Below are positions 1 through 62,537 of a DNA stretch of 64,000 nucleotides, piece by piece. The notes beneath the pieces are model-generated. The model did not search any database, was not told the DNA's origin, and saw only the letters and a list, made by a program, of their open reading frames with translations. The stretch is taken from the NCBI GenBank assembly GCA_038087875.1, contig CM075991.1, positions 8,248,001 to 8,312,000 on the forward strand, in the 5' to 3' direction. Each line of letters opens with the position of its first letter. The first letter of the stretch is position 1. The stretch comes from Malacoraja senta (lineage: Eukaryota). A program made the translations under genes and the position numbers.

Positions 1-175
1 CTTCCCTCTCTCCCCTCTTCCCTCTCTCCCCTCTTCCCTCTCTCCCCTCTTCTCTCTCTCCCCTCTTCTCTCTCTCCCCCCTTCCCTCTCTCCCCTCTTC
101 CCTCTCTCCCCTCTTCTCTCTCTCCCCTCTTCTCTCTCTCCCCTCCTTCCCTCTCTCCCCTCCTCACCCTCTCCC
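1..175. repeat. CT-rich polypyrimidine minisatellite (copy at 12335-12596)
   Basis: Repeating CTCTCTCCCCTCTT-like units. Confidence 0.9.
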
Positions 176-914: not shown

Positions 915-995
915 CGATGGCCTCGTCCCAGTCCGGCTCCAGTCGCTCTGTATCTTGTCAAACTTCCTCGCACAGATGTCCAGAGGGAAGCCCGG
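915..995 (-). CDS. Candidate 81-nt internal exon of an unidentified gene (PGFPLDICARKFDKIQSDWSRTGTRPS in phase 0, or RASLWTSVRGSLTRYRATGAGLGRGH in phase 2)
   Basis: On the minus strand a pyrimidine tract and acceptor (tttctctcctccctctcgctattttgcag) precede 81 nt of non-repetitive sequence and a gtgagt donor. Two frames are open. I do not recognise a homologue. Confidence 0.4.
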
Positions 996-1315
996 CTGCA
1001 AAATAGCGAGAGGGAGGAGAGAAAGGAAATGCTACATTGGGAGCCTGTCAGCTTGGCGGTGAGGTTGACCAGATGGTCGCTGCTGGATCCAACAAGTCTC
1101 CAGTCTATTAGTTTCTTTCCTCTCTTTACCCCCCTCTTTCTCTCTCTCACTCTCTCCCTAAAAGGGGGCAATGGGCAGAGCAGACCGGCCGCTGTTGGGG
1201 GTGTCACAGCAGAAGCTTTTCCTCCAACACTCGCTCTCCTTTAGAGCAACTTGTTCCATTCCCCGCGCAGCCTCTGATCCAGCCCAGATATTGCCCGCCC
1301 CGTCACAGGCGGCGT

Positions 1316-6290
<4,975 letters not shown>

Positions 6291-6384
6291 AGATTGCACT
6301 CCAACTGTATAAATACTAATTCACAGACTAATGTTACAACACTAGGAGGGACTCCACGGCGTGGAAAATCGCTCAGGTTCGTTA

Positions 6385-6525
6385 TGTTCATAAATTCATG
6401 TTCTAGGTGCAGAATTAGGCCATTCGGCCCATCAAGTCTACTTTGCCATTCAATCATGGCTGATCTATCTCTCCCTCCTAACCCCATTCCCCTGCCTTCT
6501 CCCCTGACACCCGTACTAATCAAAA
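6385..6525 (-). mobile_element. CR1/HER1-type LINE 3' end fragment
   Basis: Reverse complement of the conserved tail GATCAGCCATGATTGAATGGC...GGGCCGAATGGCCTAATTCT. Confidence 0.8.
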
Positions 6526-6529
6526 ACGT

Positions 6530-6720
6530 TTTTCCTCATCTCCATTCTGTCTTTCATTTGTTTGTTCTATATCTCTCTATAGTATCACTGTCTATATCTT
6601 TTTCCCTCTCCCCTTGACTCATCATTCTGAGGAAGGGTCTCGACCCTAAACGTCACCTATTCCTTCTCTCCACAGATGCTGCCTGTCCCGCTGAGTTACT
6701 CCAGCTTTTCGTGTCTGTCT
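6530..6720 (+). mobile_element. Penelope pLTR fragment with a degenerate hammerhead core
   Basis: CTGAGGAAGGGTCTCGACCCTAAACGTC followed by ...GATGCTGCCTGTCCCGCTGAGTTACTCCAGC. Confidence 0.7.
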
Positions 6721-11897: not shown

Positions 11898-13343
11898 ATA
11901 TACACAAAGGATAGGTACAGACTCGATGGGCCGCATGGCCTCTCTCTGTGCAAGGAGGGGAAGGGACTGTGCCTTTAAACCAAATTACGTCATGCACAGT
12001 TTGAACAAAATAGGCAATGAAGTTACACATCCCATTGCCTGAAGTCCCATTACAGCACAATCACCTTCATAGCCCTTAATATTTCAGGGGTGGAAAATGC
12101 CCTTCACATTTAGAAAAGCTGATCATTAAAAAATTTGAGGCATGGGGAAATCCCACAAAGAGCTAACGTGGGAATTAGTTTTTAAAAGACCCGTTGCTCG
12201 GGCTGTCTGTGTCTCAATCTGGAGATTCACAAATATTATGCAGATCAGTCTTAGGTGGGTCACCAGGGCGGGAGTTGAAGGCGGGGGTTAGTCTTGCTAG
12301 TTTATGAGGGGAGAAGACACCCTATCTCTCCACTACCTCCTTCTCTCTCTCCCTCCTTCTCTCTCCTCCCCTCCTTCTCTCTCTCCCCTCCTTCTCTCTC
12401 TCCCCTCTTCTCTCTCTCCCCTCTTCCCTCTCTCCCTCTTCCCTCTCTCCCTCTTCCTCTCTCCCCTCTTCTCTCTCTCCCCTCTTCTCTCTCTCCCCCC
12501 TTCCCTCTCTCCCCTCTTCCCTCTCTCCCCTCTTCTCTCTCTCCCCTCTTCTCTCTCTCCCCTCCTTCCCTCTCTCCCCTCCTCACCCCTCTCCCCGGAT
12601 CCCAGTGTGTAACTCCCTCGATTAAATCTGTTCTGTTGCAGGATCCCACCCCACCTCGGCACGCTCTTTGTATTTTTGCATTGAACTAACTGCAGGCAAC
12701 TGAGGGTGGTGGTTTGAATCTTATTTCCCTTTGCAAGCAGTGGGTGGGTGTGGGGGTGGGGGTGGGTGTGGGTGGTGGGGATGGCTGTGGGTGGTGGGGG
12801 GGTGGGGGGTGGGGGGGGGGTCAGAACAGCACTGAAGACCAACGATTCCGAATAACAGCAGGAAACAGTCCCGACAACACGAGGAGGGAAAATACTATTT
12901 AAAGCAGAACTGCTCCGGGTGCCATGATCACCATCATCAAGATGTCTGCTTTTATATATATATAATTTTTTTTTTTAAACATGCAAACAAGGATTACATT
13001 GACCAGGGAGAGAATAACAAAGAGCTTTCAACATTGGGGCTCCCACGTTGGTGTAGTTTGGGCCAAATCAATGACTGAATTAACTGGTCTCGCCCATCGC
13101 TCGCTTTCATTGTCTCGAATCCAATGAAGAAATCGGCTAGAATTCACTTTAATTCAATTAAATCAACGTGTCCGGGGCTGGGAGGGGGGTGGGAGGGGTG
13201 GAGGGGTGGAGGGGTGAGGAGAGGAGGCAGCAATCTGTAAATCCACCACACATATCAACACACTAACACAATGAAGGGTTGCTTGTCCCTACACAAGGAC
13301 CCATCCGGAATTAGCACGACATGGACATTTAAAGGCTACTCAC

Positions 13344-13425
13344 ACGATGGCCTCGTCCCAGTCCGGCTCCAGTCGCTCTGTATCTTGTCAAACTTCCTCG
13401 CACAGATGTCCAGAGGGAAGCCCGG
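13344..13425 (-). CDS. Second copy of the candidate exon (82 nt here because of a 1-bp insertion next to the donor)
   Basis: Same acceptor and donor context as 915-995. Confidence 0.35.
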
Positions 13426-13745
13426 CTGCAAAATAGCGAGAGGGAGGAGAGAAAGGAAATGCTACATTGGAGCCTGTCAGCTTGGCGGTGAGGTTGACCA
13501 GATGGTCGCTGCTGGATCCAACAAGTCTCCAGTCTATTAGTTTTCTTTCCTCTCTTTACCCCCCTCTTTCTCTCTCTCACTCTCTCCCTAAAAGGGGGCA
13601 ATGGGCAGAGCAGACCGGCCGCTGTTGGGGGTGTCACAGCAGAAGCTTTTCCTCCAACACTCGCTCTCCTTTAGAGCAACTTGTTCCATTCCCCGCGCAG
13701 CCTCTGATCCAGCCCAGATATTGCCCGCCCCGTCACAGGCGGCGT

Positions 13746-18736
<4,991 letters not shown>

Positions 18737-19446
18737 AGATTGCACTCCAACTGTATAAATACTAATTCACAGACTAATGTTACAACACTAGGAGGGACTC
18801 CACGGCGTGGAAATCGCTCAGGTTCGTTATGTTCATAAATTCATGTTCTAGGTGCAGAATTAGGCCATTCGGGCCCATCAAGTCTACTTTGCCATTCAAT
18901 CATGGCTGATCTATCTCTCCCTCCTAACCCCATTCCCCTGCCTTCTCCCCCTGACACCCGTACTAATCAAAAACGTTTTCCTCATCTCCATTCTGTCTTT
19001 CATTTGTTTGTTCTATATCTCTCTATAGTATCACTGTCTATATCTTTTCCCTCTCCCCTTGACTCTCATTCTGAGGAAGGGTCTCGACCCTAAACGTCAC
19101 CTATTCCTTCTCTCCACAGATGCTGCCTGTCCCGCTGAGTTACTCCAGCTTTTCGTGTTCTGTCTTCGGTTTACACCAGCATGGGCAGTTCCTTCCTACG
19201 CAGGATCAAATATGTAGATGAACATACAATGCTCTCCAGTGATGGATGGACACACAGTGATACATAAGCAGAGCGATGCATGTGCAGCAAAGCCATTTCC
19301 TTTGTGCCAAGTGAAAGAAAGCATTTTTCCAAAATCATCTAATCTAGAAAGTATGCCACAAATGACGACAAATAAAATACCATAAATGCACACTCACCAA
19401 TGTGATGACATAATGTGTATAGGTTGCTGCATAGAATGCCAGGCTT

Positions 19447-20466: not shown

Positions 20467-20566
20467 TAGAAACAAGGAACTGCAGATGCTGGTTTACCAA
20501 GGAAAAGCACAACATGCTGGAGGAGGTCGGGGAGGACCGCATACAACACGGTGAGCCTGATGGCAG

Positions 20567-20985
20567 GTACACAAAAATGCTGGAGAAACTCAGCGGGTGC
20601 AGCAGCATCTATGGAGCGAAGGAAACAGGCAACGTTTCGGGCCGAAATACTTCTTCAGACTGATAGGGGGTGGGGAGAAGAAAGAAAAAAGGCGGAGGAG
20701 GAGCCCGAGGGCTGTGGGAGGGGAGGAGACAACCAGAGGGCTGATGAAAGGGGTGGGGACAGCAAGGGCTAGCAGGAAGTAGACTGCCCAAGCGGAATAT
20801 GAGGTGCATTTCCTCCAATTTCCGGTGTTGCTCGCTGTGGACATGGAGGAGACCCAGGACAGAGAGGTCAGATGGGAGGGAGGGGGAGTTGAAGTGCTGA
20901 GCCACCGGGAGGTCAGGTTGGTTATTGCGGACCGACCGGAGGTGTTCGGCGAAAAGATTGCCAAGCCTCCGCTTGGTCTCACCGG
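20567..20985 (-). mobile_element. Penelope-like element 3' fragment (GIY-YIG C-terminal remnant plus pLTR), internally deleted
   Basis: ORF 20609-20905 (AQHFNSPS..DLSVLGLLHVHSEQHRKLEEMHLIFRLGSL); closely matches 61655-62110. Confidence 0.9.
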
Positions 20986-22329
20986 TGGCATGCCTGGCTC
21001 ACCAGCCACGGAACCGCAAGAGGTCATAAAGTCAAAATGGTTAGGGGTAGAATGAGGCCATTTGGCCCATCAAGTCTACTCCGCCGTTCAATCATGGCTG
21101 ATCGATCTCTCGCCTCCTTATTAACTCCCCCCTAACCCATTGAGAGGGAAGATGTCGGGTCCGTCCCCCGCTTGCCCTGAAGACCGGGGACTGGAGAGGA
21201 GGAGGAGAGAGTCGGCGGCTGCAGTGGACACTGGACAAGGGAGGGTAGGAAGAACCAAGGGGGTCTTACCTTCCGCACCGGGTTGAAGATGGCCGGGCAC
21301 GGAGTTGATTGGTACGGGGGCCAGAGGTTATGGGGAGAAGGCAGGAGAATGGGGTTAGGAGGGAGGGATAGATCAGCCATGATTGAATGGCGGGAGTAGA
21401 CTTGATGGGCTGAATGGCCTAATTCTACCCCTATTCCTTAATGCTTTATGACTTCCCCTAGATCAACAATTAAAAATTAAACTCACCTGCCCCTTAGATG
21501 TCCCCTTCCTTAAGACCTTATGACGATGGTTATGGCCAGTTGGGAATGTGAAACGGCCTCAAAACCGGGCGACATTTGCATACAGACGCTGTGGGCTGAT
21601 TCTGTGTATTATCTACTGACTGGGGATTGTACCTTATGGATGGTATTAATCTATGGGTACTGATCTATTTGCATAAAACAAATCCCACTCTAGGTAGACA
21701 CAAAGAGCTGGAGTAACTCAGGCAGCTTCTCTGGAGAGAAAGAATGGGTGACGTTTCGGGTCGAGACCCTTCTTCAGACAATCTCACTGTACCTTGGTAC
21801 ATGTGATAAAAAAAGGAGCCATTAAACCATTGAGAAACTCAGCGGTCCAGACTGCTCTCCTGCAGAACATGGATAGGTGACGTTTCGGGTCAGGACCCTG
21901 CTTTAGACTGATGAAAACGTCACCCATCCATGTTTTGTTTAAGAAGGAACTGCAGATGCTGGAAAATCGAAGGTAGACAAAAGTGCTGGAGAAACTCAGC
22001 GGGTGCAGCAGCATCTATGGAGCGAAGGAAATAGGCAACGTTTCGGGCCGAAACCCTTCTTCAGACCTATCCATGTTTTCCAGGGACATTTGCCAGACCA
22101 GCGTTTTATGTCTTGGCTCTGATAACTTCATTTGTGATTCAGCGTCAAGTTTTAATTGCAGATGCTCCTGTGAAGCAGCTTGGGATGTTTTATTGTGTTG
22201 AAGTGCCCTACAATTACAGATTGAAGCATGAATGGGAAGAGATTCGTGTAGAATACAACTATCTGCACAGCCGAGTTGAATTGAATGTCACGTTCTAATC
22301 ACAGAACTAGGTGCCACACCGTGAGTTTC

Positions 22330-27471: not shown

Positions 27472-29475
27472 TTAACATTTCAGGTTGGAGACATCCGGTA
27501 CAAAAGAGAAATTTATTCCGAGTGCAGAATATAGTGTTACAGCTGCACAGAAAAGTGCAGATAATAAAAAGTGCCATAGCGAGGTAGATTGGGAGATCGT
27601 GACTTTGTCCTTTGCATTGGAGAGGTCAATGCGTTACAATGCTGAGAGCTATATTCTGCAGTCTGTATCTTCCCCTTTGCTCTATCAATTGTACTTGAGT
27701 TTGACCTGATTGGATCTAGGTTTGGTACATCTGGTCGGTTTGGATAGCATGCAAAACAAATTTTTTCACTGTACAGCATGTCTGGAGAAATAGATGAAGT
27801 TTCAGTCCGAGACCCTTCCGCAGACTAATTAAACTGAATCATCACCCATCCACTTTCAACGGAGATGCTGCCTGACACACTGAGTTACTCCAGCACTTTG
27901 TATCTTTTTTTGTAAATCAACATCTGCAGTTCCTTCCTACACATTTCGTCTGCTCCATTGCAAAATCTCCTCAAGCAATGTCTACTTCGAAGAAGTTCTT
28001 CTCTCTCTGACGAGAGTCCTGCAACACCCTCTCTCACTGACATCATCATATATCTCTCGGGCTCCTCCTCTTCCTTTTTCCTTTTTCCTTTCTTCTCCCC
28101 ATCCCCCCCCACCCCCACCCTACATCAGTCTGAAGAAGGGTTTCGGCCCGAAACGTTGCCTATTTCCTTCGCTCCTTAGATGCTGCTGCACCCTCTGAGT
28201 TTCTCCAGCACTTTTGTCTACCTTCGATTTTCCAGCATCTGCAGTTCCTTCTTAAACATCATATATCTCTCGTTTCCCTAATCCCTAACCAGAAGTGTCT
28301 CGACCCGAAACGTCGCCCATTCCTTCTCTCCGGAGATGCTGCCTGCCTGAGTTACTCCAGCTTTCTGTGTCTATCTTCGGTTTAAACCAGCATTTGTGCA
28401 GTTCCTTCCTACACGTTTCATCTGCAGTTCCTTGTGTCTTTAGCTTCTAACTAAGGGCTGCAGGATATTAGATAATGCTCCATCAAGCACCTTCGGATGT
28501 TGGGCACCATTTAAAAGTCATTATACAAACAGAAGGTTTTGTTTTCCAAAGTGTTTCAACACAACTGCGCATGATGGAGAAGGGCGTGTAAATGGGGATG
28601 GAGTGACTGTCGGCCTGAAAAATAACGACCTTCAACACATTAGTTTGTTGCCCATTCAGCTCGGTGACCCTGGAGCCATGATAAGCAGTGGATCCATTGT
28701 TTTGACCTGCCAGTCTCCACTGCTGATAGTCACTGACTTTTGTTCGGTTGCCTGCCCTGTGAATGTTCCATTACAACCCGCTTCACAAAGGCCTCACACA
28801 GTGTCGATGGCCTGCTCATTAAGAGGGGGGAAATGAGCAAATGACAAGCTTGCTTAAGGCAATTCAGTTCCTCAAGACTGCTGCCAGCCGCCTGAAAAGA
28901 AGGTCTCCTTTTGTTGTCATGCTCTGGGAGGAGTGGGCCTCTTTGGTGGAGTTGACATCGCCACAACAAATGGGCCTGTGATGATGGTGTTGAGCCACCA
29001 TTTTAAACCACAGGTTACATATAACTGAGGGGTCTGTTTTATATGTTGGTGGTTTTGATAACATTCCTGCCTTTCTTACCCCTTTATGCAGCGTAGTTGT
29101 TTAATTTATTTAACAGATGCTGGAAAATCGAAGGTAGGCAAAAGCGCTGGAGAAACTCAGCGGGTGCAGCAGCATCTATGGAGCGAAGGAAATAGGCAAC
29201 GTTTTGGCCCGAAACCCGGAAGGGTTTCGGCCCGAAACGTTGCCTATTTCCTTCAGTCTGAAGAAGGGTTTCGGCCTTAAACGTTGCCTATTTCCTTCGC
29301 TCCATAGATGCTGCTGCTCCCGCTGAGTTTCTCCAGCACTTTTGTCTACCAGTTGTTTAATTTAGTTCAGTTTAGTTTAGTTTCATTTAGTTTAGTGAAA
29401 CAGCATGCAAACAGGCCCTTCGGCCCACCGAGTCCATGCCAACCATCGATCACCCGTTCATACTAGCCCTATGTA

Positions 29476-34484: not shown

Positions 34485-35192
34485 CAAGTCAAGTCAAGTG
34501 AGTTTATTGTCATGTGTCCCTGGTAGGACAATGAAATTCTTGCTTTGCTTGAGCACAACAGAACATAGTAGGCATTTACTACAAGGCATTCTATAAATAT
34601 ATACACAATGGTCAATATACTGATAAAGTGCAAATAACAGTATTGGCTAGTAAAGTTCAGTGTTATGTCCGAGCCAGGTTTAATAGCCTGATGGCTGTGG
34701 GGAAGTAGCTATTCCTGAACCTGGTCGTTGCAGTCTTCAGGCTCCTGTACCTTCTACCTGAAGGTAGTAGGGAGATGAGTGTGTGGCCAGGATGGTGTGG
34801 GTCCTTGATGATGCTGCCAGCCTTTTTGAGGCAGCGACTGTGGTAGATCCCCTCGATGGAAGGGAGGTCAGAGCCGATGATGGACTGGGCAGTGTTTACT
34901 ACTTTTTGTAGTCTTTTCCTCTCCAGGGCACTCAAGTTGCCGAACCAAGCCACGATGCAACCGGTCAGCATGCTCTCTACTGTGCACCTGTAGAAGTTAG
35001 AGAGAGTCCTCCTTGACAAACCGACTCTCCGTAATCTTCTCAGGAAGTAGAGGCGCTGATGTGCTTTCTTAATAATGGCATAATTGTTCTCGGACCAGGA
35101 AAGATCTTCAGAGATGTGCACGCCCAGGAATTTGAAGCTCTTGACCCTTTCAACCATCGACCCGTTGATATAAACGGGACTGTGGGTCCCCA
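34485..35192 (-). mobile_element. Rex1/Babar LINE 3' part (ORF C-terminus, UTR and (ACTTG)n tail)
   Basis: VERVKSFKFLGVHISEDLSWS..KKAHQRLYFLRRLRR...LLPSGRRYRSLKTATTRFRNSYFPTAIRLLN. Confidence 0.92.
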
Positions 35193-35479
35193 TCCTACTT
35201 CGGGTCTGGACCTTCCCACCCGAACCATCATCTATCCATGTTCTCCGAGGATGCTGCCCGACACATTGATTTACTCCAGAAATGTGTGTCCTTTTTTTTA
35301 CCATTGAACAGACCAGGTTGACCACCCATTTGTTCAATGGTTCTTCCATTGTGACGGTATTATTGCAACAACAACTGCTGAAGGTGTAGAACCACATATT
35401 AACCAGATCAAGTAAGGATGGCAGATATCCTTGATGGTAGATGGAAGTATCTCTGGATACTTTCAAGAGAGAGCTTGAT

Positions 35480-36240
35480 ACCCCACAATTAAAATGTGGA
35501 TTACGGACATGACTGAGACCTTGCATTTGGAAAAAAATAAGATTTGTCTTAATTGACAAACCAGAATTATTTGTTAGAATAATTTGGTCTCCATTTATTG
35601 AATTCTTAAAAATAGTTCTGAGCTAACGTCATTTCAAAGATGTTTCCTTAATTATGGTTTGATAATGGCAAAAATACTTATAATTAAATTCTGGAAAAAC
35701 GCACCTATCCCAACGTTTAAAATGTGGATTACAAATATGTTGGAAATGTTACATCTCGAGGAAATGAAACTTGTTCTAGCAGGAAAACCAGAACAATTCT
35801 TTAAGATGTGGTCGCCTTATAATGATTTATTACAAGTATAATATGGTGCAACATAACCCTGGAAAGTAACCATTTCAGAACTAGGTGAGGGGTGTGTAAC
35901 GTTACGAATTAGGCACAGTCACTTTTTTTTTCTCTGTTTAGTTATACTTTTAATGCATTTTCTTCTTATTTCCTTTATTTTCTTAAGGCCCTTTTATTTT
36001 GGGGGCCTTTCGGCTTTTTTGTGGGGTTTTTCCTTCTACACTTCTTTTTTTTAATTTTTTTAATTTTTTATTTATTAGAAGTACATTACATTACAACCAC
36101 ATACATTAGTACTCTACACTTCTAAGGACACAGTCTAATTATCTAATTATCAATCATTAACCGTTAATTATTGCGCCCAACACATCACTACTATCCTCAA
36201 GCTTTTCTTTTTTTCTTTTTCTTTTCTATCAAAAGTATGT
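35480..36240 (+). mobile_element. Two L1-clade ORF2 C-terminal fragments and T-rich 3' UTR sequence
   Basis: AKILIIKFWKNAPIPTFKMWITNMLEMLHLEEMK...FFKMWSPY, with a related copy at ~35480-35610. Confidence 0.7.
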
Positions 36241-37529
36241 ATTATGCTATATACCAGGATTATTATGTATGTAGGTAGACAAAAATGCTGGAGAAACTCA
36301 GCGGGTGCAGCAGCATCTATGGAGCGGAGGAAATAGGCAACGTTTCGGGCCGAAACCCTTCTTCAGACTTGCAACGTTTCGGGCCGATACCCTTCTTCAG
36401 AACATAGATACATAGATACATAGAAAATAGGTGCAGGAGTAGGCCATTCGGCCCTTCGAGCCTGCACCGCCATTCAATATGATCATGGCTGATCATCCAA
36501 CTCAGTATCCCGTACCTGCCTTCTCTCCATACCCCCTGATCCCCTTAGCCACAAGGGCCACATCTAACTCCCTCTTCAATATAGCCAATGAACTGGCCTC
36601 TCTAACACTCCACTGCAAAATCTCCTCAAGGTATGCCTACTTTGAAGAAGTTCTCCTCCTCTCTCCGGAGACAGTTCCACAACCACCTCTCTAACCATAG
36701 ATGCTGCTGCACCCGCTGAGTTTCTCCAGCATTTTTGTGTACCTTCGATTTTCCAGCATCTGCAGTTCCTTCTTAAACACTTATTATGTATGTACATTGC
36801 TTCTAATAAAAATAAAATTAAAAAAATAAAAATAAAAATAAATCAAGTGAATTGGTTTAACACCAAATCAGGGTTGAAACTTGAGTTTGGGATTGGATGA
36901 ATACGTATACTTAATATCTCCTGGATCTATCTCCACAATCTTGTTATTTGTAATCTCTTTTTTCGTCTTCTTTTTCTCTCTATTAGTTTAGAGTTTCTCT
37001 TATCTTTTTCTCTCTTTCTCTTTATTCTTAAAAAAAAAAATTAAAATTGAAGCTATGTAAGAAATCTGTAATTAAATTGTCGCTCACTACTAATTGTAAA
37101 CATGCTTCTAATAAAAATATTTACAAACAAAAAAAAGAGAGAGCTAGATAGGGCTCTTAAAAATAGCGGAGTCAGGGGATATGGGGAGAAGGCAGGAACG
37201 GGGTACTGATTGGGGATGATCAGCCATGATCACATTGAATGGTGGTGCTGGCTCGAAGGGCCGAATGGCCTACTCCTGCACCTATTGTCTATTGTCTATT
37301 GTCTATTTGTCTTTGTGACAATCTGGCAGTTTCATGGTTACTTTTACAGAATGTCATTCTGCTCGATTTAATTCATTGAGTTTGAACTCCTGTCCCTTTC
37401 TTTTACTGGTAACACAAACCAAACTACACGGACCCGGAGATGATACAAATAGATGAAAAATCCATCCCTCTGATGAACTGGAAAATTCCAAATTCATGTT
37501 GGCTTCAATGGAAAATATATTGGGATTGT

Positions 37530-39541: not shown

Positions 39542-41146
39542 CAGTGGCTTGCAAAAGTTTTCATACCCCTTGAACTTTTCCACATTTTGTCACGTTACAA
39601 CCACAAACGTAAATGTATTTTATTGGGATTTTATGTGATAGACCAACACAAAGTGGTGCTTAATTGTGAAGCGGAAGGAAAATGATACATGGTTTTCAAA
39701 TTCGTTTACAAATAAAAAACGGAAAAGTGTCGCGTGCAAAAGTATTCAGCCCCCCTGTCAATACTTTGTAGAACCACCTTTCGCTGCAATTACAGCTGCA
39801 AGTCTTTTGGGGTATGTCTCTACCAGCTTTGCACATCTAGAGACTGAAATTTTTTCCCATTCTTCTTTGCAAAATAGCTCAAGCTCAGTCAGATTGGATG
39901 GAGAGCATCTGTGAACAGCAATTTTCACGTCTTGCCAGAGATTCTCAATTGGATTTAGGTCTGGACTTTGACTGGGCCATTCTAACACATGAATATGCTT
40001 TGATCTAAACCATTCCATTGTAGCTCTGACTGTATGTTTAGGGTCGTTGTCCTGCTGGAAGGTGAACCTCCGCCCCAGTCTCGTCTTTTGCAGACTCTAA
40101 CAGGTTTTCTTCCAAGATTGCCCTGTATTTGGCTCCATCCATCTTCCCATCAACTCTGACCAGCTTCCCTGTCCCTGCTGAAGAAAAGCATCCCCACAGC
40201 ATGATGCTGCCACCACCATGTTTCACAGTGGGGATGGTGTGTTCAGGGTGATGTGCAGTGTTAGGTTTCCGCCACACATAGCGTTTTGCATTTAGGCCAA
40301 AAACTTCAATTTTGGTCTCATCTGACCAGAGCACCTTCCTCCACATGTTTGCTGTGTCCCCCACATGGCTTGTGGCAAACTGCAAACGGGACTTTTTTTT
40401 TCAACAATGGCTTTCTTCTTGCCACTCTTCCATAAAGGCCCGATTTGTGGAGTGCACGACTAATACGTGTCCTGTGGACAGATTCTCCCACCTGAGCTGT
40501 GGATCTCTGCAGCTCCTCCAGAGTTACCATGGGCCTCTTGGCTGCTTCTCTGATCAATGCTCTCCTTGCCCGGCCTGTCAGTTTAGGTGGACGGCCATGT
40601 CTTGGTAGGTTTGCAGTTGTGCCATACTCTTTCCATTTTCGGATAATGGATTGAACAGTGCTCCGTGAGATGTTCAAAGCTTGGGATATTTGTTTATAAC
40701 CTAACCCTGCTTTAAACTTCTCCACAACTTTATCCCTGACCTGTCTGGTGTGTTCCTAGGGCTTCATGATGCTGTTTGTTCACTAATGTTCTCTAACAAA
40801 CCTCTGAGGCCTTCACAGAACAGCTGTATTTATACTGAGTTTTGATTACACACAAGTGGACTCTATTTACTAATTAGGTGACTTCTGAAGGCAATTGGTT
40901 GCATTGGATTTTATTTAGGGGTATCAGAGTAAAGGGGGCTGAATACTTTTGCACGCGACACTTTTCAGTTTTTTATTTGTAAAAAAATTTGAAAACCATG
41001 TATCATTTTCCTTCCACTTCACAATTATGCGCCACTTTGTGTTGGTCTATCACATAAAATCCCAATAAAATACATTTACGTTTGTGGTTGTAATGTGACA
41101 AAATGTGGAAAAGTTCAAGGGGTATGAATACTTTTGCAAGCCACTG
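39542..41146 (-). mobile_element. Full-length Tc1 DNA transposon (IR/DR type), 1605 bp
   Basis: TIRs of ~213 bp beginning CAGTGGCTTGCAAAAG, TA on both sides, and a GCAAAAGTATTCA direct repeat at the outer and inner TIR ends. Confidence 0.97.
39758..40767 (-). pseudogene. Tc1 DD34E transposase, disrupted by a TAG at codon 4 and two frameshifts (~40390, ~40080)
   Basis: Paired-like HTH region (GLGYKQISQALNISRSTVQSIIRKWKEYG..GRPPKL), [15 protein letters not shown] and SPDLNPIE, with 34 residues between the second D and the E. Confidence 0.95.
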
Positions 41147-41196
<50 letters not shown>

Positions 41197-41954
41197 CACA
41201 CACACACAAAATGCTCAGCTGGACAGGCAGCATCTCGGGATAGGAATTTCTTTCTGGATTGAAGGATTGCGTGACGTTTCGGGTCGAGACCCTTCTTCAG
41301 ACTGGAAGTTTTAGTTTAAGAAGGAACTGCAGATGCTGGAAAATCGAAGGTAGACAAAAATGCTGGAGAAACTCAGCGGGTGGAGCAGCATCTATGGAGC
41401 GAAGGAAATAGGCAACGTTTCGGGCCGAAACCCTTCTTCAGACTGGAGGAAATAGGCAACGTTTCGGGCCGAAACCCTTCCGGGTTTCGGGCCGAAACGT
41501 TGCCTATTTCCTTCGCTCCATAGATGCTGCTGCACCCGCTGAGTTTCTCCAGCATTTTGTCTACCTTGGAAATTTGAGTTCCATTGTCGGTGTAACTCAT
41601 TATCACCTCGTCCACATCCAACAATGGACCATTTCCTTGATCACTTGATTACTTTTTTTTGCATGTCTTTCATTCTTTTGTTCCACTTTTCTCTACATCA
41701 CCGTCTATATCTCTCGTTTCCCTTTCCCCTGACTCTCAGTCTGAGGAAGGGTCTCGACCTGACCCGCAATGTCACCAGTGATGCTCTCTGACCTGCTTAG
41801 TTACTCCATCACTTTGATGTCTATCTTTGGCGTACACATTACAACTTGTGGTTCCCACATGACAATGCGGCCTGCATTTCTGCACTAGTTCACCGGTTGT
41901 ATGAAAATGTGGGTGTTCAGAGTCGATGTCAGGCATTACTTAAATCCTTAATTT

Positions 41955-45560: not shown

Positions 45561-45904
45561 GGCAGCATCTCTGGAGGGAAGGAATGGGTGACGTTTCGGG
45601 TCGAGACCCTTCTTCAGACTGATCGTGTGTGGTGAGGGGGGGGGGGGGGGGCTCATCTGGGGACCTTCTGATAAACCTGAAACATTAACTGTGTTTTACC
45701 TACCACAGATGCTGGCCCCATAACAGAAGCGTCCACGTCACGGGGGCTGGACACTGGAGGTATCCCCAGCTAATTCTGCTACCACCATCAACTATTGCAA
45801 CAAGTGATGGCTCCCACTGATTGTCGCCGGAAGCCTGCGTCCTTTTCATAGGCCTGAAACCTTCCACAGCTCCACAACCCTCCCATCTTCCTCTTGAGTC
45901 AACT

Positions 45905-53665: not shown

Positions 53666-54364
53666 CTTGTGTCGGTGGCAATTTCTTCATTTGGATTGAA
53701 CGAATCTCTCCCTTCATCAAGGCCTGAAGACTGCAACATCCAGGTTCAGAAACAGCTTCTTCCCCACAGCCACCAGGCTAATGAACTCAACTCAAAAAAA
53801 ACTCTGAACATTAATAGCCCAATATCTGTTTATTTGCACTTTATCTGTTTTATTTATTCATGTGTGTATACATTTATATAATGGTATATGGACACACTGA
53901 TCTGCTCTGTATTCATGTCTACTATGTTCTGTTGTGCTGAAGCAAAGCAAGAATTTCATTGTCCTATCTGGGACACATGACAATAAACTCTCTTGAGTAT
54001 CTTGGTCCTTGGCTTCAAGGATTCGTCTTCCCGATCTATTCCTCTCAAGATATTATACACCCCTGTCAGATCACCCCTCATCCTCCTGCGCTCCGTGGAA
54101 TAGAGTCCTAGCCTGCTCAACCTCTTGCCTGTAGCTCAGACCTGAACCGCTGAGTTAGTTACCCCAATACTCCAGTCCTGGCAACATCCCCGCAAATCTT
54201 CTCTGTCCCCCTACTCTCCAGCTTGACGACATCTGGACTTTATGTTTACGAAGGAACCGCAGATGCTGGAAAAGCGAAGGTAGACAAAAGTGCTGGAGAA
54301 ACTCAGCGGGTGCGGCAGCATCGGTGGAGCGAAGGAAATAGGCAACGTTTCGGCACGAAACCCG

Positions 54365-54615
54365 GAAGGGTTTCGGCCCGAAACGTTGCCTATTTCCTCC
54401 AGTCTGAAGAAGGGTTTCGGCCCGAAATGTTGCCTATTTCCTCCAGTCTGAAGAAGGGTTCGGCCCAAAATGTTGCCTATTTCCTCCAGTCTGAAGAAGG
54501 GTTTCGGCCCGAAACGTTGCCTATTTCCTCCAGTCTGAAGAAGGGTTCGGCCCGAAACGTTGCCTATTTCCTCCAGTCTGAAGAAGGGTTTCGGCCCGAA
54601 ACGTTGCTATTTCCT
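54365..54615 (+). repeat. Tandem array of five full and one partial 43-44-nt hammerhead-core units within a Penelope pLTR
   Basis: Unit CAGTCTGAAGAAGGGTTTCGGCCCGAAACGTTGCCTATTTCCTC begins at 54400, 54444, 54487, 54531 and 54574. Confidence 0.9.
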
Positions 54616-57107
54616 TCGCTCCATAGATGCTGCTGCACCCGCTGAGTTTCCCCCAGCACTTTTGTCTACCTCTTGACCCTTTTTTGTGTCTAATGAGTGC
54701 CCGTAAAGTTACAGCAAGTAATAATTTCATTGTTCCGGTTCATCTCAGCTCCACTTGTAACCAATAAACACTCTGGAACTCTTGACTAAATCAGGATGGT
54801 GTTCGGTTAAGTGGACAATGACTGCCCCATTCCTCCGCTATTCCCCCATAACTTAGACAATAGACAATAGGTGCAGGAGTAGGCCATTCGGCCCTCCGAG
54901 CCAGCACCAACTTATTCGATCTCACGTACAAATGAACGCTCCCCACCTCTGATTTTTTTTGCCCCCCCCCCCGCCTGCACCAGGGGCAAATGCACGCCTC
55001 GTTGTCACCTTCCCCTCAGCTAACAATGAACCATTCTACATTTCTTTGATCATCGTCCCCTTTGATCTGTGTTTTCACACCATACCCCTTCCATCTCTCT
55101 TTGCCTCCCTCTCCCCTGACTCTCAGTCCGAAGAAGGGTCTCGTCCCGAAACGCCACCCATTCCCACCTGGTCCCCAGAGATTCCTCACGAAACCAGGCC
55201 CTTCAGCCCATCGAGTCCAGACTGATCGTTCGTACTGATCACTGATCAGGGGGTATGGAGAGAAGGCAGGTACAGGATACTGAGTTGGATGATCAGCCAT
55301 TATCACATTGAATGGCGGTGCAGGCTCGAAGGGCCGAATGGCCTACTCCTGCACCTATTTTCTATGTTTCTATGTTTCTATGTTTCTATGATCAGTACAT
55401 ACTTACTATTTAAGAAAGAACTGCAGATGCCGTGAAAAATCGAAAGGTAGACAAAAATGCTGGAGAAACTCAGCGGGTGAGGCAGCATCTATGGAGCGAA
55501 GGAAATAGGCGACGTTTCGGGTTGAGACCCTTCTTCAGACTGATTACTTGTCTATCGCTAAGTAATAGTTCATTTGAAGAAACGGACCAACATTCTCAGA
55601 GCTGAGAATGAGAGGGGAAATTGGAGACACCTCACGACCACTGAGGAGGTCCAAGCAGAGTTAAATGTCTCCAAATGCTTTTGAAATAGTAAAGTGTAGT
55701 CACTGCCGAAATGTAGGGAGTGTGGCAGCCAATATACATGTAATTAAGTGACCACATAACGTATTCCTTCGCTCCATAGATGCTGCCTCACCCACTGAGT
55801 TTCTCCAGCATTTTTGTCTACCTTCAGTACATACTTACTGATCACTGATCTTTGCCACAGCTGGCTGTGGAAGACACGTTTTGGGGTATTTTTAATGTAG
55901 AGATTGATAGGTTCTTGATTAGGAAGGGCTTCAAAGGTTTGCGGGGAGAAGGGAGGAGAACGGGGCTGGGAGGGAAAGATAGATCAGCCATGATTGAATG
56001 GCGGAGTAGACTCGATGGGCCAAATGGCCAAATTGTTCTCCGTGAAGTTATGAACGTGAGTTCAATGCCGGAGTTAATGCAGGCCTGGTTCGCCGCTGTC
56101 AGCAGAAGATGAAGCCGGTCGATGAACTTTTTTTTACCTTTGTCGACCCCAGAAATGTGGCAACGTCTTGTGTACTGCCGAGGTGAGGCTTAGTTTAGTT
56201 TAGAGGAAGCAGGCCCTTCGGCCCACCCAGCCCGTACCGACCTGCGATTCCCCACACATTAACACCACCTACAACACACTAGGGACAATTTACTCCGGCA
56301 TTTTGTGTCCATCTTCGGTGTAAACCAGCATCTGCAGTTCCTTCGCACACACGCAAAAAAACCCGGTGTCGGATGTGATGCCCTCCCAGGGACATAAACA
56401 GTTAGACGCGCACAAAACCAGAAAGGACACAACAGCCCCTCTATCACGAGCACTGAACGTTGAGCTAAAAAAGTCCGCATTTTTCAGAAGAAAGGGAAAT
56501 ATTTGGTGGTGGGCGGGCGGCTGCAAGGGAGAACTTGATATTTAAAAATAAAGGTTCAACTTGAAATCTCTGAATTGTAAGCTGGAGGAAGCCAAGATAA
56601 AGAAGGCTCGGAAATGTGGCCGGCTGCATTGCTATTTCCACAAGAATGTCTGTCCAAATCTCTCTGCAACCAGCCTGTCAATGAGGCACATTTAATCTTT
56701 GCAATTAATATGGTAAAGAATTCTGACTCCCTGTTTAGGCATTAGGCTGTAAATATTTCCCGGGAGTGATTTCAGCATCTTTAGTAGGCGCGGTGTCAGA
56801 AGTCGCCGTGACAAGTAAATTGCGCTCTTTGTACGACTGACACGGGATCTTGGGTCTTGAAGAGCGAAGGAATGCAGCTGCTTCTCTGCCCCCTAATGAA
56901 CCCTCTGTCTCCGGCATCCAGGGAGGCTAATTAAACATAATGGCAATGGGCCGCGTGCATTTGCATCTGCTTAGCTCTGCTCGCTAACTCACCTCGCAGT
57001 GCCTGGTGAGGGGGGAAGCAAAGACACTTGCCATCGCTGTTTCCGCGCTGTATCTCTGAACGAAAATCTAAACCCGCATCGTCTGCCCCTGGAGGTCCTG
57101 ACACAAC

Positions 57108-57210
57108 GCTGGAGGGACTCAGAGGGACGGGCAGCATCTCTGGAGGGACTCAGCGGGACGGGCAGCATCTCTGGAGGGACTCAGCGGGACGGGCAGCATC
57201 TCTGGAGGGA
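57108..57210 (+). repeat. Three 31-nt tandem copies of a pLTR segment
   Basis: CTGGAGGGACTCAGCGGGACGGGCAGCATCT three times. Confidence 0.85.
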
Positions 57211-57437
57211 AGGAACGGGCGACGTTTCGGCTCGGTCTGAGAGTCGGGGGAGAGGTAGACACAGAGATAAGGAAGGGTAAGGCGTGAAAACGACAGATCA
57301 AAGCGGACGATGCTCAAGGAAAGGTAGAATGGTTCATTGCTGGGTTGGGGAGATGGTGACCACGAGGCACACCATCAGAAAAATGAATCAGGAGGACAGT
57401 GAAATTAGTTGGAGAACGAGGAGGGGGAGGGACGGAG

Positions 57438-58135
57438 AGTCAAGTCAAGAGAGGTTATTGTCATGTGTCCCAGATAGGACAATGAAATTCTTGCTTTGCT
57501 TCAGCACAACAGAATATAGTAGACATGAATACAGAACAGATCAGTGTGTCCATATACCATTGAATATATATACACACACATATATAAATAAACAGATAAA
57601 GTGCATTGGGCTATTAAAGTTCAGAGTTTTGTTTGAGTTGAGTTTAATAGCCTGATGGCTGTGGGGAAGCAGCTATTCCTGAACCTGGATGTTGCAGATT
57701 TCAGGCTCCTGTACCTTCTACCTGAAGGTAGCGGGGAGATGAGTGAGTGGCCAGGATGGTGTGGGTCCTTGATGATACTGCCAGCCTTTTTGAGGCAGCG
57801 CCTGTGATAGATCCCCTCGATGGTGGGGAGGTCAGAGCCGATGATGGACTGGGCAGTGGTTACAACTTTTTGCAGCCTTTTCCGCTCCTGGACGCTCAGG
57901 TTACCGAACCAAGCCACGATGCAACCGGTCAGCATGCTCTCTACTGTGCACCTGTATAAGTTCGAGAGAGTCCTCCTTGACAAACCGACTCTCCGTAATC
58001 TTCCCTGGAAGTAGAGGCGCTGATGTGCTTTCTTTATGATTGCATCAATGTTCTGGGACCAGGAGAGATCTTCGGAAATATGCGCGCCCAGGAATTTGAA
58101 GCTCTTGACCTTCCACCATCGACCCGTTAATATAA
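57438..58135 (-). mobile_element. Rex1/Babar LINE 3' part
   Basis: ORF 57621-57983 is nearly identical to the corresponding part of the 34663-35559 ORF. Confidence 0.92.
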
Positions 58136-58144
58136 GTCTCTCGA

Positions 58145-58420
58145 CCCATTGAGAGAGAGGGAAAGCAAGGGTTACTTGAAGTTAGAGAAATCAATATTCA
58201 TACCGCTGGGGTGGAAACTGCCCATGAGGTGCAGAAATATGAGGTGCTGTTCCTCCAATTTGCACTGGGCCTCACTCTGACAACGGAGGAGGCCCAGAAC
58301 AGAAAGGGCAGTGTGGGAATGGGAGCGGCAATTAAAGTGTTTAGCAACCGGGAGATTGTGTAGGAACGAGCGGCGGTGTTCAGCGAAACGATGGCCGACC
58401 CTGCGCTTGTTCTCGCCAAG
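58145..58420 (-). mobile_element. Penelope GIY-YIG C-terminal fragment (second subfamily)
   Basis: GENKRRVGHRFAEHRRS..PVAKHFN..LSVLGLL..KLEEQHLIF..MNIDFSNFK. Confidence 0.85.
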
Positions 58421-59183
58421 GTTTTGGGGAGAAGGCAGGAGAATGGGGTTTGGAGGGAGAGATAGATCAGCCATGAAAGGACCGAAAGTCTGAAGAAGTG
58501 TCTCGACCCCATTCCTTCTATCCAAAGATGCTGCCTGTCCCGCTGAGTCACTCCAGTACTTTGTGTCTGTCTCCGTTTTAAAGCAGCATCTGCAGTTCCT
58601 CCCAGCACACTCTGTATTCCTCCCATAGTTGAACACCAGATGCCTGTCAGCTTTCCTCCAACATTTGAATAACCTTCATGAATAACTCAGGATTCGCCAC
58701 ATAGATGAATAGTTCACCACACAAGGAACGGGTCTCAAAACGTCGCCCATTCCTTCTCTCCAGAGATGCTGCCTGCCCCTCCTGAATTACCCCAGCATTT
58801 TGCATATCTTATTCCTAATCATACTTTATTAGCCAAGTATGTTTTGCAACATACGAGGAATTTGATTTGCCATACACTCATACCAATAAAAAGCAACAGA
58901 ACACACAAAATATATTTTAACATGCAAAAAAAAAATGGAGTTCCTCTTGAGTTTAGCCAGTTCCAGTATGTCCTTTGGTTTACTGCTCTCTCGTTCACCT
59001 ACTGACCAGTCAACCCCAATATTCCTATGTCACAGGACAGCCTTGGGCTGCAGCTAATCACACACATCCTCTCTGTTCTTTCTACCCATGTCCTCTGTGT
59101 AACTCGAAACAAGAGGCAAGATTGTTTCATTGTCATCTGTTCCAACAAAGAAACAATGAAACTCCTGCTTGCCGCAGAGTAAA

Positions 59184-60444: not shown

Positions 60445-61654
60445 CTCTCGGTCCACGATATCTGTGCCGAACATGGTGCCAAGCTCAGCCTGCACGAGAT
60501 TCCCTGCGCATCCACGTGCCTGTGCAGAAGCCTCTTAAAGGCCACTATCATCCCTGAAGATTACGCAGGTGCCTAGGACCATCGTGGTTCCTCATTAACA
60601 TTGGTCGAAAGTAAAAACTAAACTAAACTAACAAAAAAGTGCTTTGCACACCTCAGCTAAATCACCCCTCAGGTCTACATTCAGAAGGTGAACCTGTAGA
60701 ACCTCTCATAAAAGATAGACACAAAATGCTGGAGTAATTCAGCAGGACGGGCAGCATCTCTGGAGAGAAGTAATAGGTGAAGCTTTGGGTCGAGATCCTT
60801 CTTCAGATGTAGAAAGGTCTCGACCCGAAACGTCACCCATTCCTTCTCTCCAGAGATGCTGCCTGTCCCGCTGAGTTACTCCAGCTTCTTGTGTCTATCT
60901 TCGGTTTAAAGCAGCATCTGCAGTTCCTTCCTACACATCACTCCTCACGCTTCTGTTTAATGGTCAGATGGTCAGTGTGTGTCTGTCCGCAGCTGGCTAG
61001 CCGCATGTAGCAGGTGCTGCCTTGATGTGGCTGAAGGCTATCAGGCCAGGCGTGGATCACGTGGCCCCACTCACAAACCCAGGCATTATACAAGCAACCG
61101 GAGCACTAGTGTGCCAGCTGCAGCTGTGTTGGCACCGTGCCGGAAGGTTGTGAGTTCAAGACCCAGCATCGCCAGCAAGGAGCGAAGGACAAAGTGCTGG
61201 GGGAACACAGCGGGTCAGGCAGCTGCCTCTGGGATTATTTCTCTGGCATGGACTCCTCAGTGACTCAGTGGGGAGAAGGCAGGCTCGGGTTATTGATTGG
61301 GGACGATCAGCCATGATCACAATGAATGGCGGTGCTGGCTCGTAAGGGCCGAATGGCCTCCTCCTGCACCTATTTTCCATGTTTCTATGTTTCTATGTAA
61401 CAACCTCTTTTCCCGTCTCCAACCTCTCCCCTTCTCCTCATGGATTCCCCTTCCCCGGCCTCCTGCCCTCTCTGGACCTCTTCATTTACAACTGCTGCCG
61501 TGACAACCATTCCCAACATCCCCCTCCCCACCCCGATCTCACCCCCACCCCAATCCCACCCCCACTGAACACTCAGCCCCCCGCTCACTCAGTAACAATC
61601 TCAACACAGTATCCACAGACGCTGCCTGGCCGGCTGAGTTGAGTTTAGTTTAGG

Positions 61655-62430
61655 GAACACAAAAATGCTGGAGAAACTCAGCGGGTGCAGCAACATCTAT
61701 GGAGCGAAGGAAATAGGCAACGTTTCGGGCCAAAACCCTTCTTCAGACTGATAGGGGGTGGGGAGAAGAAAGGAAAAAAGGCGGAGGAGGAGCCCGAGGG
61801 CTGGGGGAGGGGAGGAGACAACCAGAGGGCTGATGAAGGGGAGGGGACAGCAAGGGCTAGCAGAATTGGGAGAATTCAATGTTCAAGCCCCCAGGATGTA
61901 GACTGCCCAAGCAGAATATGAGGTGCATTTCTTCCAATTTCCGGTGTTGCTCGCTGTGGCCATGGAGGAGACCCAGGACAGAGAGGTCAGATACGGAATG
62001 GGAGGGGGAGTTGAAGTGCTGAGCCACCAGGAGGTCGGGTTGGTTATTGCGGACCGACCGGAGGTGTTCGGCGAAACGATCGCCAAGCCTCCGCTTGGTC
62101 TCACCGATGTAGATCAGCTGGCATCTAGAGCAGCGGATGCAATAGATGAGGTTGGAGGAGATGCAGGTGAACCTCTGTTGCACCTGGAACGACTGCTTGG
62201 GTCCTTGAATGGAGTAGAGGGGGGAGGTGAAGGGACAAGTGTTGCATCTCTTGCGGTTGCGAGGGAAAGTACCCGGGGAGGGGGTGGTATGGGAGGGAAG
62301 GGAAGAATTGACAAGGGAGTTGCGGAGGGAGCGGTCTTTGCGGAAGGCAGACATGGGGGGCGATGGGAAGATGTGGCGAGTGGTGGGGTCATGTTGGAGG
62401 TGGCGAAACTGACGGAGGATCACTTGTTGT
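61655..62430 (-). mobile_element. Penelope-like (Neptune-type) retroelement 3' part: Cys-rich linker, GIY-YIG endonuclease and pLTR with hammerhead core
   Basis: ORF 61857-62423 (RKRCNTC..FTCISSNLIYCIRCSRCQLIYIGETKRRLGDRFAEHLRS..VAQHFN..GLN); hammerhead core at ~61718-61748 on the minus strand. Confidence 0.93.
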
Positions 62431-62537
62431 ATGTAGTTTAGTTTAAGATAGACGCATAAAGCTGTAGAAACTCAGCGGGACAGGCAGCATCTCTGGAGAA
62501 AAGGAATGGGTCGAGACCCTTCTTCAGATTAGGGCTT

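What the first reader, a model, noticed from the sequence alone, without database searches (positions are those of the whole stretch)
61655..62430. The most abundant short repeat in the window is a hammerhead-bearing Penelope pLTR
Seen: dozens of 100-200-bp fragments contain CTGAAGA-A-GGGT(ctcg)ACCC-GAAA-CG-TC or the variant GGG(tttcgg)CCC-GAAACGTT. Examples are ~10337, 28130, 39419 and 43191 on the plus strand and ~21750, 41273, 44468, 45590, 49270 and 55510 on the minus strand. At this locus the motif lies directly downstream of a GIY-YIG ORF, which ties it to a Penelope-like element. The two variants appear to track two ORF subfamilies (61857 versus 58172/51335). Established: CUGANGA-stem II-GAAA-stem III-UH is the hammerhead catalytic core, and Penelope pLTRs carry minimal type I hammerheads whose palindromic stem III is thought to work through dimers. 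Inference: these ORF-less pieces may spread as a non-autonomous, retrozyme-like family and scatter potential self-cleavage sites on both strands of any host transcript. Caveats: stem I has only ~2 bp (GT/AC), and one subfamily has U at the cleavage position, so activity is uncertain.
Basis: partly seen in the sequence, partly recalled or inferred. Interest (0 to 1): 0.7.

Follow-up and report, generated by a model that had tools for sequence, protein, structure and literature searches.

The report
Penelope retrotransposon ends carrying minimal hammerheads
This very common short repeat is the end piece of a Penelope-type jumping gene and carries a conserved minimal hammerhead ribozyme motif, a pairing already known in animals; the scattered pieces likely arise as short reverse-transcription products rather than by self-cutting, and one palindromic version was likely copied around the genome as a unit.

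Summary
Observation confirmed. The motif is at every cited coordinate: 22 strict matches against 0 in each of 10 shuffles, about 85 pieces at about 48 loci, on both strands. At 61.7 kb it lies 111 nt behind a GIY-YIG frame whose long homologues carry RT plus endonuclease and a Neptune/Nematis-type linker. A relative with only 39-62% protein identity has the same hammerhead behind its frame, with compensatory pairs in stems I and II. This is a new member of the known PLE minimal hammerheads. The retrozyme reading is not supported for most copies. Their 5' ends pile up just before CUGA (27 of 67), not at the cleavage site (2 of 67). Their 3' ends fall at two sites (the PLE 'tail'), and 13 pairs are head-to-head. 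Poly(A) RNA of a related species shows no pile-up of ends. One new detail: three unlinked loci share one palindromic composite, one with 5.8 tandem 44-nt hammerhead units. Cleavage was not tested.

The parts
61857..62432 (-). 5'-truncated 3' end of a PLE open reading frame: RT-EN linker plus GIY-YIG endonuclease with CCHH residues; the first cysteine of the linker motif reads R in this copy
   Evidence: Pfam GIY-YIG E 1.8e-4; tblastn to residues 653-848 of the RT-bearing P0042, E 5e-45; homologues
61750..61856 (-). pyrimidine-rich 3' UTR / pLTR part of subfamily A, ending in TCAG just before the hammerhead
   Evidence: shared with the copy at 20.6-21.0 kb, 88% identical over 454 nt including frame and hammerhead; sequence
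61716..61749 (-). minimal type I hammerhead motif, variant A: C3 at 61746, bulged A, 4-bp stem II, GAAA, palindromic ACGU stem III, U17 at 61719 (predicted cut 61719/61718), 2-bp stem I
61655..61715 (-). pLTR segment behind the hammerhead, ending at the first of two recurrent 3' ends (about +90 from C3), next to an AT-rich simple repeat
62445..62532 (-). B-type pLTR piece in direct orientation 5' of the truncated frame, with a 12-nt deletion that removes GAAACGUC
20565..20987 (-). second copy of subfamily A: endonuclease fragment, UTR and hammerhead with a damaged stem II
   Evidence: tblastn 86% identity
51330..51692 (+). last codons of a B-type endonuclease frame, about 250 nt of UTR, and an internally deleted B-type hammerhead with tail
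58159..58603 (.). B-type endonuclease fragment (-, 58159-58420) with an inverted B-type pLTR piece upstream (+, 58487-58603)
54242..54671 (+). palindromic composite: inverted arm, shared junction, 5.8 tandem 43-44-nt hammerhead units (54365-54615), then a forward arm
29114..29350 (+). same composite with one internal duplication; a 14-nt direct repeat of flank lies on both sides (29095 and 29351)
41314..41570 (-). same composite, third locus, with unrelated flanks
21936..22066 (-). solo A-type short copy (-2 to +129 from C3) with an 11-nt flanking direct repeat, consistent with a primary insertion

Best explanation
The repeat is the 3' part of the pseudo-LTR of a Penelope-like retrotransposon (likely Neptune-type, likely in a cartilaginous fish) and carries a conserved minimal type I hammerhead motif, and most ORF-less pieces are likely short cDNAs made by the element's own reverse transcriptase rather than self-cleaved retrozyme monomers. 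Shown: the pLTR position, the motif, the covariation and the end distribution. Inferred: the protein primes inside the RNA at one of two sites about 90 and 125-130 nt behind C3, which gives the optional tail. It then copies back and usually stops at or just before the hammerhead. That stop probably marks an RNA 5' end at the initiator-like TCAGT. Extension from both strands of the cut would give the head-to-head pairs. The hammerhead is kept by selection in the source elements and decays in most inserted copies. If it cuts at all, it would cut slowly, as a dimer or with protein help. One palindromic composite was likely remobilised in trans as a unit.
For: Position and architecture. Linker C-x4-C-x2-C in 14 of 15 printed homologues; this motif marks Neptune/Nematis and is absent from Penelope/Poseidon (PMC8557442 passages). 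Hammerhead behind the frame in 31 of 65 evaluable related loci, against 0 antisense and 0-1 in 20 shuffles. Stem II is paired in 100% of cells, with double-sided changes at 10.4-11.4 (U-A/C-G) and at 2.2-1.2 of stem I (G-C/C-G); covariation was reached by 0 of 500 shuffles. Subfamilies A and B differ at 0 of 11 core positions, and their four hammerhead differences are all compatible with the fold. Non-CpG core mismatches are 2/124 and 18/291, against 60/893 and 244/2253 downstream (p 0.025 and 0.014). 3' ends: 25 of 80 at +80-99, 27 at >=120, 4 between, 24 shorter. Adjacent pairs: 13 head-to-head, 1 tail-to-tail, 18 direct; random placement gives a mean of 1.4 and a maximum of 6 head-to-head. 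5' ends without the composite pieces: 27 of 67 at -12..+1, 2 of 67 at the cleavage site, 10 extend further into the UTR. In contigs of two related organisms the loose ends before the repeat share TCAGTCTGA and then lose agreement (0.41). Internal priming at two sites that explains the tail, extension of both strands, and protein-assisted cleavage that is not needed for insertion were shown for an anole Poseidon element (PMC11167929).
Against: No full-length element is in the window, so it is not shown that the hammerhead also sits at the RNA 5' end here. The RNA-5'-end explanation is an inference, and the initiator consensus is recalled. No transcription start was seen (no pile-up of ends at all). 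In the distant relative the inverted copies do not pile up at CUGA (1 of 21 at -2; 10 of 21 run to the end of my query), although those copies were picked for lying beside a frame. Some apparent 5' ends may be UTRs of subfamilies missing from my references. The core-versus-flank test is weak: alignment edges favour the core, and pooled sub-lineages inflate flank variation. 77 of the 80 related loci come from one data set, so the covariation is effectively one independent comparison. Only 2 of 14 loci examined gave a clear flanking duplication; 3 more matches were short or simple-repeat. The in vitro precedent is a Poseidon element, not a Neptune one.
Confidence: 0.7

Rival explanations
1. The short copies are a dedicated non-autonomous SINE-like family: one or a few master loci of about 95-135 nt that begin at TCAGT are transcribed and inserted by the PLE protein.
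For: Sharp 5' boundary. Short ends outnumber frame sequence: depth about 4,000 per mate direction on the A end against 45-555 on frame bins in poly(A) RNA of a relative. The composite shows that ORF-less units can be copied. Non-autonomous PLE derivatives are known (PMC8557442 passage).
Against: The same boundary occurs in subfamilies A, B and the mosaics, each with its own UTR-bearing copies. Several masters would all have to start at the same place. The 5' ends scatter over about 12 nt.
Confidence: 0.15
2. One reading: hammerhead cleavage of multimeric RNA releases monomers, possibly circular, that are reverse-transcribed and reinserted.
For: Tandem hammerhead units exist at 54365-54615 and 36273-36402. 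Animal non-LTR retrozymes are reported to derive from pLTRs, including in one chondrichthyan (bioRxiv 10.64898/2026.07.22.740005).
Against: 2 of 67 5' ends lie at the cleavage site. The one long tandem has a 44-nt unit, below the 51-972 nt consensus range of that preprint and the 150-450 nt of classical retrozymes. No end pile-up in RNA; the one strong 'goes-back' joint starts at G12, lacks CUGA and also exists in DNA contigs. Predicted minimum-energy folds are not the hammerhead. Only 1 of 9 predicted Xenopus dimers cleaved in that preprint.
Confidence: 0.08
3. The copies are random 5' truncations and later deletions of ordinary PLE insertions, and the motif is a non-functional relic.
For: 5' truncation is typical of PLEs. 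59 of 79 pieces have lost the intact motif. 28 of 67 5' ends lie at +2..+25 or beyond +30.
Against: The 5' ends are concentrated in a 14-nt window (27 of 67). The motif and its pairing are kept across proteins about 50% identical.
Confidence: 0.07

Closest known systems
Minimal hammerheads (min-HHR) of metazoan PLE pLTRs (Cervera & de la Pena 2014, PMC4209133; parts 1-2 of 4 read)
   Same: Type I topology, an extra nucleotide between 9 and 10.1, G10.1-C11.1, palindromic 15.2-16.2 with no loop 3, location in the pLTR, mostly dispersed single motifs from truncated elements; reported in Xena, Poseidon and Neptune elements of fishes. The D. virilis variant also has a 2-bp helix I.
   Different: Stem II has 4 bp here against 7-8 bp in Schistosoma. 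One subfamily has U17. Cartilaginous fishes are not named in the parts I read.
Neptune/Nematis-type EN+ Penelope-like elements (Craig et al. 2021, PMC8557442; passages)
   Same: C-terminal GIY-YIG with CCHH residues, CX2-5CxxC linker in homologues, pLTR with hammerhead, inverted 5'-truncated copies, 30-40-nt optional tail, insertion beside simple repeats.
   Different: No RT in the window. Neptune and Nematis were not separated, because no tree against reference elements was built.
Poseidon element PAc of Anolis (Frangieh et al. 2024, PMC11167929; parts 1-2 of 4 read)
   Same: Two 3' ends a little over 100 nt behind the hammerhead; no RNA-seq ends at the cleavage site.
   Different: Different clade. 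PAc's frame starts inside the hammerhead, which could not be tested here.
Animal non-LTR retrozymes (Cervera & de la Pena 2020, PMC7229834, passages; Li et al. 2026 preprint, parts 1-3 of 5 read)
   Same: ORF-less, pLTR-related, type I hammerhead. The 54.4 kb array is formally a tandem of hammerhead units.
   Different: Most copies are solo or head-to-head, not head-to-tail monomers of 150-450 nt. The hammerhead is minimal, not canonical. The tandem unit is 44 nt and sits inside a palindrome.

Membership tests
EN+ Penelope-like element | C-terminal GIY-YIG endonuclease with CCHH residues | tested here: met
   Pfam GIY-YIG E 1.8e-4, just below cut-off; CxxC between the two motifs and two histidines in the translation
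EN+ Penelope-like element | RT upstream of the endonuclease in one frame | tested here: inconclusive
   No RT piece in the window; homologues P0039, P0043 and P0002 carry RVT_1
EN+ Penelope-like element | pLTR structure: direct and inverted 5'-truncated copies, optional 30-40-nt tail | tested here: met
   Two 3' end clusters about 35 nt apart; 13 head-to-head pairs against a mean of 1.4 at random
Neptune/Nematis clade | CX2-5CxxC linker before the endonuclease | tested here: met
   14 of 15 printed homologues; the window copy has R for the first C
Neptune/Nematis clade | RT phylogeny with reference elements | not testable with these tools
   No reference PLE library and no RT in the window
Minimal type I hammerhead | Core C3-A9, G12-A14, A15.1-U16.1, H17 | tested here: met
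   Invariant in alignment A1; 0 of 11 differences between subfamilies; H17 is C (B) or U (A)
Minimal type I hammerhead | Stem II with G10.1-C11.1 and an extra nucleotide after A9 | tested here: met
   100% of cells paired, 2 of 4 pairs with double-sided change
Minimal type I hammerhead | Stem I | tested here: inconclusive
   2 bp here, 3 bp in the relative, one double-sided change; 70.6% of cells paired over three pairs; predicted pairing probability near 0
Minimal type I hammerhead | Palindromic stem III allowing a dimer | tested here: met
   ACGU self-duplex predicted, -3.1 to -5.7 kcal/mol; the dimer hammerhead is not the cofold minimum
Minimal type I hammerhead | Self-cleavage at H17 | not testable with these tools
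   Needs an assay; no end pile-up in two poly(A) libraries of a relative, a weak test
Rfam hammerhead families | Match to a covariance model | tested here: not met
   No hammerhead among 61 matches at E<=5
Non-LTR retrozyme | Head-to-tail tandem monomers, each with a hammerhead | tested here: not met
   Not met by the bulk of copies; formally met only by the 44-nt array at 54365-54615 and a two-unit case at 36.3 kb
Non-LTR retrozyme | Linear and circular monomer RNAs produced by cleavage | not testable with these tools
   Only poly(A) and single-cell raw RNA of a related species was offered

The most novel reading that the evidence does not exclude
A palindromic, ORF-less Penelope derivative (inverted arm + expandable array of 44-nt hammerhead units + forward arm) is a self-propagating family, present three times in 64 kb. 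Its two arms pair into a long hairpin that would loop out the array and supply the cis dimer partners that minimal hammerheads need, so it would be an active, MITE-shaped retro-element that cleaves the transcripts it sits in. The bulk of short copies would mark the element's RNA 5' end, a 'strong-stop'-like by-product of internal priming.
Probability: 0.2. Interest if true: 0.6.

Novelty: new member of a known kind. Interest (0 to 1): 0.33.

Why it matters
The pairing of hammerhead and pLTR has been in print since 2014, so the main finding is an annotation, not a discovery. Its value lies in scale and in natural controls. About 12% of this window is pLTR-derived, with GUC and GUU subfamilies, solo copies, inverted pairs and a natural tandem array side by side. 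That makes a good test set for an open question: what PLE hammerheads do, and whether they cut at all in vivo. The clustered ends also give a genomic readout of where PLE reverse transcription starts and stops.

Tried and rejected
Whole-genome analysis: no genome is held for this window, so all counts are for 64 kb. Rfam gave no hammerhead hit. Viral contigs held no relative of the protein. The search of 1.84 billion proteins gave 7,539 unnamed hits and added nothing beyond. One search listed no RNA run on record as holding the stretch; I laid two raw poly(A) runs of a related species instead. The composite junction could not be counted in reads, because only 15 of about 2,000 joints are shown. 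Spliced-RNA template: the pyrimidine tract plus AG before the hammerhead looks like an acceptor, and the D. virilis intron ends at helix I. Rejected as the cause of the 5' boundary, because short copies share no upstream exon sequence. A structure behind the hammerhead (an 8-bp long-range stem closed by the tail plus a small hairpin) is 94.7% paired but shows no covariation above shuffles (87-127 of 500), with folding z from -2.4 to +0.2; kept as a lead only. The count of 63 of 65 proteins with a linker pattern was dropped, because the pattern also hits the endonuclease CxxC. No excess of A>G changes in RNA over DNA contigs relative to other transitions, so editing is not claimed. Earlier findings of this scan: three look-ups, all empty. 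Lunse et al. 2016/17 on PLE hammerhead dimers could not be read and is known to me only from a reference list. Literature searches showed no paper on this palindromic composite. Repbase, Dfam, subscription papers and the preprint's supplements were not seen and may hold it.

Full report
The observation. A strict core pattern matches 22 times, against 0 in each of 10 shuffles. A profile built from the window's own copies gives 80 hits against 0. BLAST with seven window references finds 85 pieces (43 +, 42 -) covering 11.8% of the window. These merge into 48 loci, more than the four other interspersed families I probed (31, 29, 24 and 6 loci, not an exhaustive census). Rfam has no hammerhead match among 61 hits at E<=5.

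The element. The frame at 61857-62432 hits GIY-YIG (E 1.8e-4, just below the cut-off) and stops 111 nt before C3. Among the named longer homologues, those with the highest identity are from cartilaginous fishes (54-66%), which suggests the host group by inference. Long homologues carry RT in front of the endonuclease, and the window frame aligns to their last 200 residues or so. No RT piece lies in the window. 14 of 15 printed homologues have a C-x4-C-x2-C linker. Craig et al. 2021 (PMC8557442, passages) give this motif for Neptune and Nematis and state that it is absent from Penelope/Poseidon. So this is an EN+ PLE, likely Neptune-type; no tree was built.

The hammerhead. The motif is CUGANGA, one bulged A, a 4-bp stem II opened by G10.1-C11.1, GAAA, the palindrome ACGU with no loop, then C or U at position 17. 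These are the traits listed for metazoan PLE minimal hammerheads by Cervera and de la Pena 2014 (PMC4209133, parts 1-2 of 4). Subfamilies A and B differ at 0 of 11 core positions and at four hammerhead positions, all compatible with the fold: a loop base, U-A/U-G in stem II, C17/U17, and U-A/U-G in stem I. They differ at 8 of 57 downstream positions. Core mismatches are lower than downstream ones (2/124 vs 60/893, p 0.025; 18/291 vs 244/2253, p 0.014), but alignment edges and pooled sub-lineages bias this test. The stronger test is external. Of 80 metagenome loci encoding a relative (39-62% identity), 65 had enough downstream sequence, and 31 of these carry the same architecture about 100-290 nt behind the match, against 0 antisense and 0-1 in 20 shuffles. 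On an alignment of 10 window copies and 8 of those loci, stem II is paired in all cells. There are double-sided changes in stem II (U-A/C-G) and stem I (G-C/C-G), and 0 of 500 shuffles reach the covariation score. 77 of the 80 loci come from one data set, so this counts as one independent comparison. Against activity: stem I is 2 bp here, predicted minimum-energy folds are alternative hairpins, and only 20 of 79 pieces keep core and stem II.

Subfamilies and frames. The A variant follows the 61.9 kb-type frame at both loci that have one. The B variant is tied to the other frame type only at 51.3 kb, where its hammerhead is deleted internally. The 58172 frame resembles the 51.3 kb one but has only an inverted B copy upstream. 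Mosaic and further variants exist.

How the short copies are built. Among 80 pieces, 3' ends fall at +80-99 (25) and at >=+120 (27), with 4 between and 24 shorter. This is the optional 30-40-nt PLE tail. The distant relative also has one cluster at +86-99 (32 of 85 pieces) and a second group running to about +140-149, where my query ends. Of 32 adjacent pairs, 13 are head-to-head, 1 tail-to-tail and 18 direct; random placement gives 1.4 head-to-head on average (maximum 6 in 2,000 trials). Head-to-head is the usual PLE arrangement (PMC3846280, passages). After dropping 13 composite pieces, 27 of 67 5' ends lie at -12..+1 from C3, 2 at the cleavage site, 10 further into the UTR and 28 elsewhere downstream. 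Cleavage therefore does not set the unit ends. One solo copy (21936-22066) has an 11-nt flanking repeat, as expected of a primary insertion. In contigs of two related organisms, the loose ends before a B copy share TCAGTCTGA and are otherwise heterogeneous (agreement 0.41), consistent with the same boundary genome-wide. In the distant relative, inverted copies beside frames do not show this pile-up (1 of 21).

Mechanism. Frangieh et al. 2024 (PMC11167929, parts 1-2 of 4) showed for an anole Poseidon element that RT starts inside the RNA at two sites that define the tail, that both DNA strands are cut and extended, that the hammerhead cuts only with protein, and that cutting is not needed for insertion. 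Applied here by inference, priming at +90 or +125-130 and run-off to a nearby RNA 5' end gives 95-135-nt copies, and priming on both strands gives head-to-head pairs. TCAGT just before C3 resembles an initiator (consensus recalled; an Inr-like site is noted in rotifer pLTRs, and an internal promoter in D. virilis Penelope, PMC2377424 passages). This step is not shown.

RNA. Two poly(A) runs of a related species were laid on 60790-62440 at 85% likeness. About 0.7% of reads were laid, including reads on an unrelated repeat at 61.2-61.4 kb, and 96% of them run on into unlike sequence, as expected of copies embedded in host transcripts. Depth per mate direction is about 17,000 on the B end, 4,000 on the A end and 45-555 on the frame. 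Both directions are about equal, and library strandedness is unknown. No place showed a pile-up of molecule ends. This is weak evidence: another species, fragmented libraries and pooled copies. The strongest 'goes-back' joint (530 and 705 reads) begins at G12, lacks CUGA and is also in DNA contigs, so it is not a hammerhead circle.

The composite. Loci 29114-29350 (+), 41314-41570 (-) and 54242-54671 (+) have unrelated flanks but share one inverted junction, one base change in the inverted arm and one 44-nt duplication junction. The 54 kb copy has 5.8 units, some of them damaged, and folds as a long hairpin around the array (-220 kcal/mol, z -14). The 29 kb copy has a 14-nt flanking repeat. 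Common descent and copying as a unit is the simplest reading, from n = 3. It partly rescues the non-autonomous idea, but as a palindrome rather than a classical retrozyme (150-450-nt tandem monomers; PMC7229834 passages). A 2026 preprint (10.64898/2026.07.22.740005, parts 1-3 of 5) already derives animal retrozymes from pLTRs, includes one chondrichthyan, and found cleavage in 1 of 9 predicted dimers; its supplements were not seen and may list this family. Six literature searches showed no description of the composite, but repeat libraries were not available.

Verdict. This is a real, abundant, conserved minimal hammerhead in a PLE pLTR: a new member of a known kind. The retrozyme and mass-cleavage inferences are not supported for the bulk of copies. 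Interest 0.33, carried mainly by the end-clustering and the palindromic composite.

Noticed in passing
window 1-6720 and about 12300-19200: A near-identical duplicated block with a 5-kb (CA)n-like array in each copy, the first ending at an N gap; a segmental duplication or an assembly artefact.
   Followed up: no
window 45702-45780 (+): Weak Rfam match to the CPEB3 (HDV-like) ribozyme, 26.9 bits against a gathering score of 35, E 0.006.
   Followed up: no
window 39761-40755 (-): Broken Tc1/mariner-type transposase: DDE_3 and Sleeping Beauty-type HTH hits.
   Followed up: no
window 34666-35622 (-) and 57624-58181 (-): Two related frames hitting Pfam ALKBH8_N (E 8e-12 and 5e-8), likely 3' ends of a LINE family; one interrupts the B-type PLE UTR at 58.2 kb.
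   Followed up: no
window copies with tail, e.g. 41314-41401 (-); L007 and L028 downstream of the hammerhead: An 8-bp long-range stem closed by the tail plus a small hairpin just before the first 3' end is predicted in window copies; a similar arrangement with different sequence is predicted in some copies of the distant relative, and both end in a T-rich GT motif. No covariation support within the window.
   Followed up: partly
window 60827-60885 (reads of runs X23, X24): A tandem joint of about 66 nt, starting at G12 of a B-type copy, is abundant in poly(A) RNA of a related species and rare in DNA contigs; likely one highly expressed locus.
   Followed up: partly
window 57101-57234 (-): A B-type pLTR piece with a 31-nt internal tandem repeat.
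   Followed up: no
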